Notes under the pieces: generated by a model | Databases searched by the model: none | What the model was told of the DNA's origin: nothing | Seen by the model: only the letters and a program-made list of their open reading frames with translations | Translations under genes and position numbers: made by a program | From: Escherichia coli | GTDB taxonomy: Bacteria; Pseudomonadota; Gammaproteobacteria; Enterobacterales; Enterobacteriaceae | Assembly: GCF_003334385.1 (NCBI RefSeq) | Contig: NZ_QOWN01000009.1 | Direction: 5' to 3' (one strand) | Length of the DNA stretch: 64,000 bases | Shown: piece by piece, positions 33,854 through 35,020 of the stretch | Numbering within the stretch: position 1 is the first letter of the stretch | Layout of the letters: every line of letters starts with the position of its first letter

Positions 33854-34593
33854 GTAACTGGCCTTATCCCCGCATCGTCGCTCATCGTGGCGGCGGTAAG
33901 CTGGCCCCGGAAAACACCCTGGCGGCAATCGACGTCGGGGCAAAATACGGTCATAAGATGATCGAATTTGACGCGAAGTTATCGAAAGATGGCGAGATCT
34001 TCCTGCTCCATGACGACAATCTCGAACGTACCAGCAACGGCTGGGGCGTCGCGGGTGAACTGAACTGGCAGGATTTACTGCGCGTGGATGCGGGCAGTTG
34101 GTACAGCAAAATGTTTAAAGGTGAGCCGCTACCGTTGCTTTCGCAGGTGGCGGAACGTTGCCGCGAACACGGGATGATGGCGAATATCGAAATCAAACCC
34201 ACCACCGGCACCGGGCCATTAACGGGCAAAATGGTGGCGCTGGCGGCACGCGAGCTGTGGGCCGGTATGACGCCGCCGCTGCTGTCATCGTTTGAGATTG
34301 ATGCTTTAGAAGCTGCACAACAGGCGGCACCGGAACTGCCGCGCGGTTTGTTGCTGGATGAGTGGCGCGACGACTGGCGCGAACTGACCGCGCGGCTGGG
34401 CTGCGTCTCTATTCATCTCAATCATAAGTTACTCAATAAAGCGCGAGTGATGCAGTTGAAAGACGCCGGACTGCGGATTCTGGTTTATACCGTCAATAAA
34501 CCCCAGCGCGCAGCAGAGTTGCTGCGCTGGGGTGTGGATTGCATCTGTACCGATGCGATTGACGTGATTGGTCCGAACTTTACGGCCCAATAG
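33850..34593 (+). CDS. ugpQ: Glycerophosphodiester phosphodiesterase UgpQ
   Basis: 247 aa [29 protein letters not shown]... (GDPD family HRG motif). Confidence 0.95.
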
Positions 34594-35020
34594 TTTTCAA
34601 CGGAATGTCAGGCTGCGGCGTGCTGGGCTGATTCAGCATGTCGCCGTTTCTCCTCTCCGGCAGCATATGCTGCTGATTCAACGAACTATCCGGATTACGG
34701 TTGCTGTTTAACATCCCGCCGTTGGTGTTGGGCAGCATTTGCTGCCGGGCGGGATTTCGCTCCCCCGGCTGTGACTGCAACACCCGCTGAGAATTATTGT
34801 TTATCTGGTTTTCTAAATGCTGCTGTTGCAACTGAGTTTGCGTTTTCAGTTGCTGATTCAGCATCCCTTTTTGCTGGATTTGCTGAGTCTGCATCTGGGT
34901 TTGCATCCGCTGCTGGCTGGGTATCTGATACCCCGGCTGGTTAGGGTTGTTCAGAGTATTAATGGGCTGTGCAAAGCCGACAAACGGCAGGAGTGCCGTA
35001 AGAATCAGAAGTCGTTTCAT
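34580..35020 (-). CDS. yhhA: Secreted Gln-rich low-complexity protein YhhA
   Basis: 146 aa ORF with signal peptide [17 protein letters not shown] followed by Q/N-rich repeats. Confidence 0.8.

What the first reader, a model, noticed from the sequence alone, without database searches (positions are those of the whole stretch)
34580..35020. Gln/Asn-rich low-complexity secreted protein YhhA overlapping the ugpQ 3' end
The 146-aa ORF has a signal peptide followed by Q/N-rich repeats ([37 protein letters not shown]) and its 3' end overlaps the ugpQ stop region on the opposite strand. Function is unknown; the composition is unusual for E. coli.
Basis: seen in the sequence. Interest (0 to 1): 0.2.

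Follow-up and report, generated by a model that had tools for sequence, protein, structure and literature searches.

The report
Known periplasmic glutamine-rich stress protein YhhA
The ORF is the already annotated E. coli gene yhhA, a real, well-conserved, exported glutamine/asparagine-rich stationary-phase protein whose biochemical role is still unknown; its short overlap with ugpQ is an incidental result of two genes converging.

Summary
Window 34580-35020 (-) is a 146-aa ORF identical to E. coli K-12 yhhA (DUF2756/PF10956; NCBIfam NF007675). It overlaps the ugpQ 3' end by 14 nt. It has a classical Sec signal peptide (cleavage VGFA|QP). The mature 129 aa are 36% Gln+Asn.

It is not drifting low-complexity sequence. 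dN/dS is 0.05-0.09, as low as for ugpQ. The gene is in 5425 of 5426 complete E. coli genomes. It sits at the same ggt<>yhhA><ugpQ position from Escherichia to Erwinia.

AlphaFold2 predicts one long Gln-rich helix (residues 34-82) between a Pro/Asn-rich N-terminal motif and a disordered tail carrying repeated G-x-M-L-N motifs.

Published data place it in the sigma-S regulon and detect the protein in envelope extracts.

The ugpQ overlap varies between genera (14, 4 or 17 nt, or none). Each gene's terminator-like hairpin lies inside the other's ORF.

My best reading is a sigma-S-controlled periplasmic, largely disordered protectant or binder. The mechanism is inferred and low-confidence. A published label as a type III effector is not supported.

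This is a known gene of unknown function and of low interest.

The parts
34580..35020 (-). yhhA coding sequence, 146 codons plus the stop at 34580-34582
   Evidence: ORF list. 100% match to annotated yhhA of MG1655. PF10956 E = 1e-60. NF007675 scores 265 bits against a cutoff of 136. dN/dS 0.05-0.09.
34970..35020 (-). Sec-type signal peptide, residues 1-17 ([17 protein letters not shown]), predicted cleavage before Q18
   Evidence: Read directly from the sequence. A17, Q18 and P19 are invariant in 15 Enterobacteriaceae orthologues. Small -3/-1 residues are kept in all 22 family members. No lipobox Cys.
34922..34969 (-). Conserved Pro/Asn-rich N-terminal motif of the mature protein, residues 18-33 ([16 protein letters not shown])
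   Evidence: Invariant N21, N24, N25, P26, N27 and Y31 in alignment A1. pLDDT is about 51-62 and no secondary structure is predicted.
34775..34921 (-). Core of DUF2756: predicted single long Gln-rich alpha-helix, residues 34-82
   Evidence: AlphaFold2 helix 34-82, pLDDT 72-88. M43 and Q50 are invariant, and P34, R38, Q46, Q47, L54, Q56, Q61 and Q72 are at least 90% conserved across 22 members including Erwinia. This is the only part kept in the most distant members.
34583..34774 (-). Disordered C-terminal tail, residues 83-146. It has two copies of a roughly 24-residue unit (QQ-MLP...G-x-MLN) and the conserved end IPLKTIGP.
   Evidence: pLDDT below 50 for residues 87-135. M103, L104, H118, M119, L120, G126, M128 and L129 are at least 90% conserved in Enterobacteriaceae. 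One unit is precisely deleted in E. albertii. The tail is absent from the Erwinia-type members.
34580..34593 (.). 14-nt 3'-3' overlap of yhhA and ugpQ (the ugpQ stop is at 34591-34593)
   Evidence: The overlap is 4 nt in Salmonella, 17 nt in Citrobacter tructae and absent (91-nt gap) in Buttiauxella.
35028..35032 (-). Shine-Dalgarno GGAGG, 7 nt upstream of the ATG
   Evidence: Sequence. GAGGA is kept in most orthologue upstream regions.
35047..35055 (-). Candidate sigma-S-type -10 element TAAACTTAA
   Evidence: The block GTAAACTTAA is conserved in 7 Enterobacteriaceae upstream regions. It fits the sigma-S extended -10 pattern TAYRCTTAA at 8 of 9 positions (the pattern is from my own knowledge). 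An RpoS holoenzyme SELEX peak lies in the ggt/yhhA spacer (PMC5493296). The transcription start site was not mapped here.
35096..35104 (-). Invariant AAGCCTGGT block in the ggt-yhhA spacer, role unknown
   Evidence: Invariant in all 8 aligned spacers, including the Apirhabdus-like locus. It fits no promoter consensus that I checked by eye.
34495..34533 (-). Terminator-like hairpin plus UUUAUU for yhhA, lying inside the ugpQ ORF 47 nt past the yhhA stop
   Evidence: RNA fold -25.7 kcal/mol, z = -4.4, 0 of 200 shuffles as stable. The same hairpin with a U-rich tail is present in Salmonella and Citrobacter.
34615..34654 (+). Terminator-like hairpin downstream of the ugpQ stop, lying inside the yhhA ORF
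   Evidence: Pattern scan. RNA fold -22.1 kcal/mol, z = -2.9, 1 of 200 shuffles as stable. The U-run is weak.

Best explanation
The ORF is yhhA, a genuine protein-coding gene of the small DUF2756 family. The family was found in Enterobacteriaceae and in Erwinia- and Apirhabdus-type genomes.

Shown here or in cited papers:
- The gene is under strong purifying selection and is almost universal in E. coli.
- It has held one chromosomal position, between ggt (divergent) and ugpQ (convergent), since before Escherichia and Erwinia split.
- Its transcript rises with the sigma-S general stress response.
- The protein is detected in envelope extracts.

Inferred from the sequence:
- A Sec signal peptide is cut after Ala17, releasing a 129-residue periplasmic protein.
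- That protein has a Pro/Asn-rich N-terminal motif, one helix of about 49 residues made mostly of Gln with a sparse line of Met/Leu/Ile, and a disordered tail with four M-L motifs and a conserved IPLKTIGP end.

Proposed mechanism (inference only). YhhA is a very soluble, largely disordered stationary-phase periplasmic protein. It would use its few conserved Met/Leu positions, set in a polar Gln/Asn matrix, to bind other envelope proteins transiently. That would make it a protectant or holdase-like binder during starvation and envelope stress.

The 14-nt ugpQ overlap has no coding significance of its own. The two convergent transcription units simply end inside each other, which can give antisense overlap between a Pho-regulated operon and a sigma-S gene.

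My probabilities: a real gene of the named family, above 0.98. A Sec-exported sigma-S stress protein, about 0.85. The holdase or protectant mechanism specifically, about 0.3.
For: - Identity and family.
- Selection: dN/dS is 0.057-0.091 at unsaturated distances, against 0.06-0.12 for ugpQ and 0.015-0.05 for ggt. Between genera pN is about 0.19 and pS about 0.77.
- Prevalence: 5425 of 5426 complete E. coli genomes.
- Synteny: kept in Salmonella, Citrobacter, Buttiauxella, Enterobacteriaceae bacterium 4M9, Erwinia psidii and an Apirhabdus-like contig.
- Architecture: AlphaFold2 gives helix 34-82 with pLDDT 72-88 and the rest below 50-60.
- Very hydrophilic: GRAVY -1.40.
- Sigma-S: an RpoS holoenzyme SELEX peak in the ggt/yhhA spacer (PMC5493296). 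yhhA is listed among induced RpoS-regulon genes after cold shift (PMC4057180). It is induced on entry to stationary phase together with rpoS (PMC2241611). It is induced 5.6-fold by a LolCDE inhibitor alongside elaB, ycaC and raiA (PMC5105897). The protein falls together with RpoS, OsmY, YciE/F and SodC in a delta-rsmF strain (PMC7056703). A TAAACTTAA element is conserved upstream.
- Protein in the envelope: among the 15 predominant proteins of STEC surface extracts, beside HdeB, Ivy, YmgD, ZraP and SodC (PMC9731836). It was also quantified in ESBL E. coli and in Salmonella.
- Overlap incidental: 14, 4, 17 or 0 nt in four genera.
- Embedded terminator hairpins. The pair is listed as yhhA-ugpQ by ExcludonFinder (PMC12288877).
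Against: - No experiment assigns a function, and no client or partner is known.
- There is no detectable relationship to known periplasmic chaperones. The profile search against PDB found nothing. One of 22 members hit Pfam Metal_resist at 9e-4, and the hit did not reappear in NCBIfam for ten distant members or in Pfam scans of two members.
- Hydrophobic and conservation periodicity along the helix is not significant (p = 0.058 and 0.14), so a defined binding face is not demonstrated.
- The M-L tail and the IPLKTIGP end are missing in Erwinia-type members, so they cannot be essential to the ancestral function.
- Rare natural E. coli alleles delete much of the helix. One complete genome has a truncated gene. 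The gene is therefore dispensable under some conditions.
- Signal-peptide cleavage and periplasmic residence are predicted, not measured here.
Confidence: 0.5

Rival explanations
1. Self-assembling Q/N-rich scaffold. The Gln-rich helix would form coiled coils, a gel or condensate, or amyloid-like assemblies in the stationary-phase periplasm. It would be a structural rather than a client-binding role.
For: There are 36 Q/N in 80 residues, which exceeds the 30-per-80 criterion used for Q/N-rich prion-like domains (the criterion is from my own knowledge of Michelitsch and Weissman 2000). A long helix is predicted. Hydrophobic residues fall roughly every 3.67 residues. The protein is abundant in envelope extracts.
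Against: A tethered two-copy AlphaFold2 model of the core gave lower confidence than the monomer (pLDDT at most 65, pTM 0.31). The periodicity is not significant. The 10.9% Pro and the strict positional conservation are unlike composition-driven prion domains. There is no experimental sign of aggregation.
Confidence: 0.12
2. Methionine-based chemistry. YhhA would be a periplasmic Cu(I)/Ag(I) buffer or a sacrificial oxidant sink repaired by MsrPQ, working through its conserved Met residues.
For: The mature protein is 5.4% Met, 7 residues. M39, M43, M53 and M119 are invariant and M103 and M128 nearly so in Enterobacteriaceae. H118-M119 is conserved.
Against: Across the whole family only M43 is invariant. 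M39 becomes L, V, T or I and M53 becomes K, N or R in distant members. That fits hydrophobic packing rather than Met-specific ligation. No HxxM, MxxH or MxxM motifs of the SilE/PcoE/CopC type are present (sequence). No metal- or oxidant-specific induction appeared in the papers read.
Confidence: 0.08
3. A functional partner of the neighbouring periplasmic gamma-glutamyltransferase, for example a modulator of GGT maturation or activity, co-regulated from the shared divergent spacer.
For: The divergent ggt<>yhhA arrangement and an invariant AAGCCTGGT spacer block are kept from Escherichia to Erwinia-type genomes. Both products are exported.
Against: ugpQ on the other side is conserved just as well, so the synteny is explained by vertical inheritance. 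In Erwinia psidii an effector-chaperone pair separates ggt from yhhA. In Apirhabdus apintestini no ggt gene is called next to yhhA (L009). GGT is far more widespread than DUF2756. No co-expression evidence was found.
Confidence: 0.07
4. A type III secretion effector that mimics ATM-kinase S/TQ substrates in host cells, as proposed in bioRxiv 10.1101/364117.
For: [quoted passage not shown] I could not read its source reference.
Against: A cleavable Sec signal peptide is conserved in every member. The gene is in 5425 of 5426 E. coli genomes, including K-12 and BL21, which lack a LEE-type injectisome. It also occurs in environmental genera such as Buttiauxella, Kosakonia, Phytobacter and Scandinavium. 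SQ/QS pairs are expected by chance in a protein that is 22% Gln. An abundant periplasmic protein can appear in culture supernatants by leakage.
Confidence: 0.02
5. Not a functional protein: a chance ORF in CAG/CAA-rich DNA whose real role is as the terminator or antisense region of the ugp operon.
For: The ugp terminator-like hairpin lies inside the ORF. The composition is biased. Length variants arise by slippage.
Against: dN/dS is 0.05-0.09 with many synonymous changes. Peptides have been identified in several proteomes. There is a strong Shine-Dalgarno sequence. The ORF is conserved where it does not overlap ugpQ.
Confidence: 0.01

Closest known systems
DUF2756 (Pfam PF10956) / NCBIfam NF007675 (PRK10350), the YhhA family
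   Same: Full-length match above both thresholds. Same length, same signal peptide and same genomic position. The window sequence is the K-12 protein itself.
   Different: Nothing differs. The family itself has no assigned function and no solved structure.
Small sigma-S/envelope-stress periplasmic proteins of E. coli (OsmY, YbgS, YmgD, YqjC, HdeB, Spy/CpxP/ZraP)
   Same: Small and Sec-exported. Induced with the same stress programmes and found in the same extracts.
   Different: No sequence or profile similarity to any of them. YhhA is mostly disordered with a single helix. It is not a BON, LTXXQ-hairpin or HdeA-type fold.
Eukaryotic and bacterial Q/N-rich prion-like domains
   Same: The composition passes the 30 Q/N per 80 residue rule (36). 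Disorder is predicted outside one helix.
   Different: Residue positions are strictly conserved under purifying selection. The protein is Pro-rich and extracytoplasmic. No evidence of self-assembly.
Hydrophilins / LEA-like desiccation proteins
   Same: Extreme hydrophilicity (mean Kyte-Doolittle -1.40), disorder and stress induction.
   Different: Gly content is 5.4%, below the 6% used to define hydrophilins. YhhA is exported rather than cytosolic. The bias is Gln/Asn rather than Gly/charged.
Convergent overlapping gene pairs ('excludons')
   Same: The 3' ends overlap and each terminator-like hairpin lies in the other ORF. The pair is listed by ExcludonFinder.
   Different: Mutual repression has not been shown for this pair. 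The coding overlap is not conserved between genera.

Membership tests
DUF2756 (PF10956) / NF007675 | Match to the family HMM above threshold over its full length | tested here: met
   PF10956 E = 1.1e-60, model positions 1-105 of 105. NF007675 scores 265 bits against a curated cutoff of 136, positions 1-145 of 145.
DUF2756 (PF10956) / NF007675 | Orthologous genomic position between ggt and ugpQ | tested here: met
   Window, MG1655 annotation and six other genera.
Sec/signal-peptidase-I exported proteins | Positive n-region, hydrophobic h-region of 10 or more residues, small residues at -3 and -1, no lipobox Cys | tested here: met
   MKR / [13 protein letters not shown] / G-F-A|Q. The pattern is kept in 22 members. 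No dedicated predictor was available.
Sec/signal-peptidase-I exported proteins | Experimentally cleaved and located in the periplasm | not testable with these tools
   Indirect only: abundant in a surface/envelope extract together with periplasmic proteins (PMC9731836).
Sigma-S (RpoS) regulon | RpoS-dependent expression and RpoS holoenzyme binding at the promoter | not tested
   Literature only: the SELEX peak, RpoS-regulon listing and co-variation with RpoS protein.
Sigma-S (RpoS) regulon | Sigma-S-type -10 element (TAYRCTTAA-like) upstream | tested here: inconclusive
   TAAACTTAA at 35047-35055 (-) is conserved in 7 genomes. The generic sigma-70 scan found no promoter. The transcription start site was not mapped.
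Q/N-rich prion-like domains | At least 30 Gln+Asn in an 80-residue window | tested here: met
   36 in residues 21-100.
Q/N-rich prion-like domains | Self-propagating aggregation or amyloid formation | not testable with these tools
   The only proxy was a tethered two-copy AlphaFold2 model, which gave pTM 0.31 and pLDDT at most 65. That gives no support.
Hydrophilins | Gly above 6% and hydrophilicity index above 1 | tested here: not met
   Gly is 5.4%. The hydrophilicity index is 1.40.
CpxP/Spy/ZraP (LTXXQ, Metal_resist) periplasmic chaperones | HMM or profile match to the family | tested here: not met
   One of 22 members hit PF13801 at 9e-4. There was no hit in NCBIfam. The family profile found no PDB chain of these proteins even at E up to 10.
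SilE/PcoE-type Met/His metal-binding proteins | Repeated HxxM / MxxH (or MxxM) motifs with conserved Met and His | tested here: not met
   The Met contexts are RMQTQM, GMLN, QMLP, GGML, HMLP and DMLN. Only M43 is invariant family-wide.
Type III secretion effectors | No cleavable Sec signal, and distribution tied to an injectisome | tested here: not met
   A conserved Sec signal peptide. Present in 5425 of 5426 E. coli genomes, including K-12, and in environmental genera.
Excludon (convergent overlapping transcription units) | Overlapping 3' transcript ends | tested here: inconclusive
   The ORFs overlap by 14 nt, and the terminator-like hairpins at 34495-34533 (-) and 34615-34654 (+) imply about 160 nt of transcript overlap. 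Transcripts were not examined here. The pair is listed in PMC12288877.
Excludon (convergent overlapping transcription units) | Mutually exclusive expression | not tested
   No data read.

The most novel reading that the evidence does not exclude
YhhA would be an extracytoplasmic Q/N-rich assembly protein. In stationary phase its Gln helix would drive reversible coiled-coil, gel or condensate formation in the periplasm, changing periplasmic viscosity or protecting envelope proteins. This kind of periplasmic organisation has not been described in enterobacteria. The slippage-prone Gln tract would tune assembly strength between strains.
Probability: 0.07. Interest if true: 0.6.

Novelty: already known. 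Interest (0 to 1): 0.2.

Why it matters
YhhA is one of the E. coli 'y-genes' that is conserved, under strong purifying selection and, in one published envelope extract, among the predominant proteins, yet has no assigned function. Its composition (36% Gln+Asn, one long polar helix, mostly disordered) is rare among bacterial exported proteins. Working out its role would add to knowledge of how the periplasm, which has no ATP, is protected in stationary phase. The analysis here does not reveal a new kind of system. It confirms an annotated gene, shows that the ugpQ overlap is incidental, and argues against a published effector label.

Tried and rejected
1. Tandem repeat search: no array found. 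The 'repeats' are short dispersed words.
2. Generic sigma-70 promoter scan: none found.
3. Rfam scan of 34300-35300: only chance-level hits.
4. PDB sequence search and profile search: no relatives.
5. Pfam on all 22 members. Only DUF2756 recurred. A single Metal_resist hit at 9e-4 was followed with NCBIfam on 10 distant members and Pfam on P0180 and P0156, and did not reappear. I treat it as chance.
6. Exhaustive phmmer against 1.84 billion representatives gave only 65 hits at E up to 1e-3, many of them fragments. The distant hits I traced to a source were Enterobacteriaceae or Erwinia/Apirhabdus types. A profile search of the 5.8 billion set showed only DUF2756 proteins among its best 120 hits.
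7. Fourier test for an amphipathic or conserved helix face: a peak near 3.7 residues, but p = 0.058 for hydrophobicity and 0.14 for conservation, so not significant.
8. Tethered-dimer AlphaFold2 model of the core: confidence fell (pTM 0.31), giving no support for self-association.
9. Between-genus dN/dS: synonymous sites are saturated. I replaced it with within-Escherichia comparisons.
10. Attempts to read Weber et al. 2005 (RpoS regulon) and Deng et al. 2012 (EPEC secretome) failed because the papers are not held. The origin of the 'validated effector' statement could not be checked.
11. I considered sigma-54, sigma-E and sigma-32 readings of the invariant AAGCCTGGT block by eye. None fitted.
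Full report
**1. The observation**

The ORF list gives an ATG-initiated ORF of 146 codons at 34580..35020 on the minus strand. 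Its product is [146 protein letters not shown]. The ugpQ ORF runs 33850..34593 on the plus strand, so the two genes converge and share 14 nt, 34580-34593. ggt starts at 35140 on the plus strand, 119 nt from the yhhA start and divergent from it.

The 801-nt stretch around the ORF is 100% identical to E. coli K-12 MG1655, where the ORF is annotated 'yhhA: DUF2756 family protein'.

**2. Composition and 'repeats'**

After the predicted signal peptide the 129-residue protein is 22.5% Gln, 14.0% Asn, 10.9% Pro and 5.4% Met. It has only one each of Ala, Val and Tyr. The Q+N fraction of the full ORF (0.32) lies 8.3 standard deviations above the other 82 ORFs of at least 100 aa in the window. The richest 80-residue window holds 36 Q/N.

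Tandem Repeats Finder reports nothing. The repetition consists of short dispersed DNA words. The main one is GCTGATTCAGCAT, the complement of ATG-CTG-AAT-CAG-C (M-L-N-Q), with four copies of which two are exact. There is also a duplicated unit of about 24 residues in the tail (QQ-MLP-x4-G-x-MLN...). E. albertii lacks exactly one copy of this unit.

**3. A real, constrained gene**

Pfam DUF2756 matches residues 1-105 at E = 1e-60. The NCBIfam equivalog NF007675 scores 265 bits against a cutoff of 136. The gene is present in 5425 of 5426 complete E. coli genomes, always once or twice and always chromosomal.

Nei-Gojobori dN/dS at distances where synonymous sites are not saturated:

| Gene | Comparison | dN/dS |
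|---|---|---|
| yhhA | K-12 vs KGu016 | 0.057 |
| yhhA | K-12 vs CFT073 | 0.086 |
| yhhA | K-12 vs E. albertii | 0.063 |
| yhhA | K-12 vs an unnamed 81%-identical relative | 0.054 |
| ugpQ | same genomes | 0.06-0.12 |
| ggt | same genomes | 0.015-0.05 |

Between genera the synonymous sites are saturated, but pN (about 0.19) remains far below pS (about 0.77). The biased composition is therefore maintained residue by residue, not by drift.

**4. Family and distribution**

A word-indexed search of 5.8 billion proteins found 467 hits. The best 120 listed were all DUF2756, and those carrying a source name were from Escherichia, Salmonella, Citrobacter, Enterobacter, Yokenella, Phytobacter, Buttiauxella, Dryocola and unnamed Enterobacteriaceae. 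A profile search added Kosakonia, Scandinavium and S. bongori among its best 120 hits.

An exhaustive phmmer scan of 1.84 billion cluster representatives found only 65 proteins at E up to 1e-3, many of them fragments. The most distant named members are from Erwinia psidii, Erwinia sp. HR93 and Apirhabdus apintestini. The family is small and appears lineage-restricted.

- In a 15-sequence Enterobacteriaceae alignment, 36 columns are invariant, including M39, M43, M53 and M119. The C-terminus IPLKTIGP is nearly constant.
- In a 22-sequence alignment including the Erwinia types, only M43 and Q50 are invariant. P34, R38, Q46, Q47, L54, Q56, Q61 and Q72 are at least 90% conserved.
- The distant members keep the signal peptide, a PGY-x-NPS-QQR lead-in, the Gln-rich segment and a closing SQPG. 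They lack the M-L tail and IPLKTIGP.

**5. Architecture**

The N-terminus has the three regions of a Sec signal peptide (MKR; [13 protein letters not shown]; G-F-A|Q-P) and no lipobox cysteine. Small -3/-1 residues recur in all 22 members.

AlphaFold2 with the 15-sequence alignment predicts one helix, residues 34-82, with pLDDT 72-88. Everything after residue 86 is below 50, and pTM is 0.24. The DUF2756 core is thus one helix of about 49 residues, about 7 nm long, built mostly of Gln. Met, Leu, Ile and Val sit at positions 39, 43, 48, 53, 54, 58, 64, 69, 73, 80 and 81.

A Fourier analysis gives a peak near 3.7 residues. It does not reach significance (p = 0.058 for hydrophobicity, 0.14 for conservation). 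I do not claim a defined amphipathic face.

A tethered two-copy model of the core did not gain confidence (pLDDT at most 65, pTM 0.31). It gives no support for self-packing.

No solved structure is related by sequence or by profile.

**6. Expression and regulation (from papers)**

- Genomic SELEX with RpoS holoenzyme gave a peak in the ggt/yhhA spacer (PMC5493296).
- yhhA is named among RpoS-regulon genes induced after cold downshift in O157 Sakai (PMC4057180).
- It rises 2.5-fold at the transition to stationary phase, along with rpoS (PMC2241611).
- It rises after acid treatment (PMC2270276; PMC7824302).
- It rises 5.6- to 9.9-fold with a LolCDE inhibitor, next to elaB, ycaC and raiA (PMC5105897).
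- It is a hub among genes induced by multiple stresses (PMC9501238).
- The protein is among the 15 predominant species in surface extracts of STEC strains, beside HdeB, Ivy, YmgD, ZraP, PsiF and SodC (PMC9731836).
- The protein is quantified in an ESBL E. coli and in Salmonella.
- It falls together with RpoS, OsmY, YciE/F and SodC in a delta-rsmF strain (PMC7056703).

In the sequence, a strong GGAGG lies 7 nt before the ATG (35028-35032). The block GTAAACTTAA (35046-35055, minus strand) is conserved in seven Enterobacteriaceae spacers. From my own knowledge of the sigma-S extended -10 pattern (TAYRCTTAA), it matches at 8 of 9 positions. The transcription start was not mapped, so this assignment is an inference.

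**7. The overlap with ugpQ**

The order ggt (divergent), yhhA, ugpQ (convergent) is kept in:

- Salmonella (L002),
- Citrobacter tructae (L004),
- Buttiauxella (L003),
- Enterobacteriaceae bacterium 4M9 (L005),
- Erwinia psidii (L007),
- an Apirhabdus-like contig (L010).

The coding overlap is 14 nt in E. coli and E. albertii, 4 nt in Salmonella and 17 nt in C. tructae. It is absent in Buttiauxella (91-nt gap) and in 4M9 (about 700 nt). The overlap is therefore not a conserved feature.

Transcript ends tell a more interesting story. A GC-rich hairpin followed by UUUAUU lies on the minus strand at 34495-34533, inside the ugpQ ORF. Its fold is -25.7 kcal/mol, z = -4.4, with 0 of 200 shuffles as stable. 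It recurs in Salmonella and Citrobacter.

A 12-bp hairpin with a weak U-run lies on the plus strand at 34615-34654, inside the yhhA ORF (z = -2.9).

If both work as terminators, the convergent transcripts overlap by about 160 nt. ExcludonFinder lists yhhA-ugpQ among transcriptionally overlapping pairs (PMC12288877). Whether the Pho-regulated ugp operon and sigma-S-dependent yhhA interfere with each other is untested.

**8. Length polymorphism**

E. coli alleles of 96 to 165 residues exist. Most of these cluster representatives have one to three member sequences, whereas the 146-residue forms have tens to hundreds.

Ten alleles were analysed, six shorter and four longer. Each is explained by a single in-frame deletion or tandem duplication in the Gln tract, bounded by 4-9 nt of microhomology. 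This is typical of replication slippage.

Some alleles remove most of the helix. One complete genome (strain A16) has a deletion fusing truncated yhhA and ugpQ. The gene is therefore dispensable in some settings, despite strong average constraint.

**9. What it most likely does**

Shown here or in the cited papers: a real, constrained gene whose expression rises with sigma-S and envelope stress, and a protein found in envelope extracts.

Inferred from the sequence: export by Sec, with a mature protein that is very hydrophilic (GRAVY -1.40), mostly disordered and carries one long polar helix.

From this I infer a stationary-phase periplasmic protectant or binder. Its sparse conserved Met/Leu positions, set in a Gln/Asn matrix, would make transient contacts with other envelope proteins. 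I put this specific mechanism at about 0.3.

The rivals, with my probabilities:

- A self-assembling Q/N-rich scaffold, 0.12.
- Met-based metal or oxidant chemistry, 0.08. It is weakened because only M43 is conserved family-wide.
- A GGT-linked role, 0.07. The synteny is explained equally well by vertical descent, and ggt is separated from or missing next to yhhA in two genomes.
- A type III effector, 0.02.
- A non-functional ORF, 0.01.

The effector idea (bioRxiv 10.1101/364117) conflicts with three observations:

- The Sec signal peptide is conserved.
- The gene is near-universal in E. coli, including K-12 and BL21.
- The gene occurs in environmental genera.

I could not read the paper it cites.

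**10. Comparison with known families and verdict**

Membership in DUF2756/NF007675 is met on every testable feature. The protein passes the compositional rule for Q/N-rich domains but shows no sign of assembly. It fails the hydrophilin glycine criterion (5.4% against 6%). It has no profile match to CpxP/Spy/ZraP and has no SilE/PcoE-type motifs.

This is an already known, annotated gene of unknown function. The additions from this analysis are:

- quantitative evidence of constraint,
- the helix-plus-disordered-tail architecture,
- the incidental nature of the ugpQ overlap,
- terminator-like hairpins embedded in each other's ORFs,
- slippage-driven length variants,
- an argument against the effector label.

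Noticed in passing
window 34495-34533 (-) and 34615-34654 (+): Each convergent gene's terminator-like hairpin lies inside the other gene's coding region. The yhhA hairpin inside ugpQ is very stable (z = -4.4) and is conserved in Salmonella and Citrobacter, so this part of ugpQ encodes both protein and RNA structure.
   Followed up: partly
window 35096-35104 (ggt-yhhA spacer): A 9-nt block AAGCCTGGT (read on the yhhA strand) is invariant in all eight spacers aligned, including an Apirhabdus-like genome in which the rest of the spacer is unalignable. It fits no promoter consensus that I checked. It could be a regulator site or part of the ggt 5' UTR.
   Followed up: partly
L007 3680-4750 (Erwinia psidii): A type III effector of the AvrPphF/HopF family and a CesT-type chaperone are inserted between ggt and yhhA. 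This makes the otherwise conserved spacer an integration spot in a plant pathogen.
   Followed up: no
L013 2601-3417 (E. coli strain A16, otter): A deletion fuses truncated yhhA and ugpQ. ugpE and ugpA are annotated as frameshifted in the same genome. Either the whole ugp-yhhA region is decaying or the assembly has indel errors.
   Followed up: no
L014 2601-2969 (E. albertii): The E. albertii orthologue lacks exactly 24 codons, one of the two C-terminal QQ-MLP...G-x-MLN units, and is otherwise 93% identical. The tail repeat number is not fixed within the genus.
   Followed up: partly
window about 36920-40100 (from L001 annotation): Just beyond ggt, K-12 carries yrhB and yrhD, an IS1A copy, a YrhA-family gene and an orphan Hcp1-family type VI secretion gene annotated tssD. 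In Citrobacter (L004) and in the unnamed relative (L015) an Hcp gene also sits next to ggt.
   Followed up: no
literature on yhhA (bioRxiv 10.1101/2021.12.15.472736; PMC4632034): A ppApp photoaffinity probe captured only six E. coli proteins, one of them YhhA. That is odd for an exported protein and may be a lysate artefact. Separately, the Walker strain C41(DE3) carries a yhhA Pro-to-Leu change at nt 290.
   Followed up: no
L003 4454-4544 (Buttiauxella): Where yhhA and ugpQ do not overlap, the 91-nt gap folds into a long, very stable hairpin on both strands (z = -4.4 and -4.7). It looks like a bidirectional terminator or a REP-like element.
   Followed up: no
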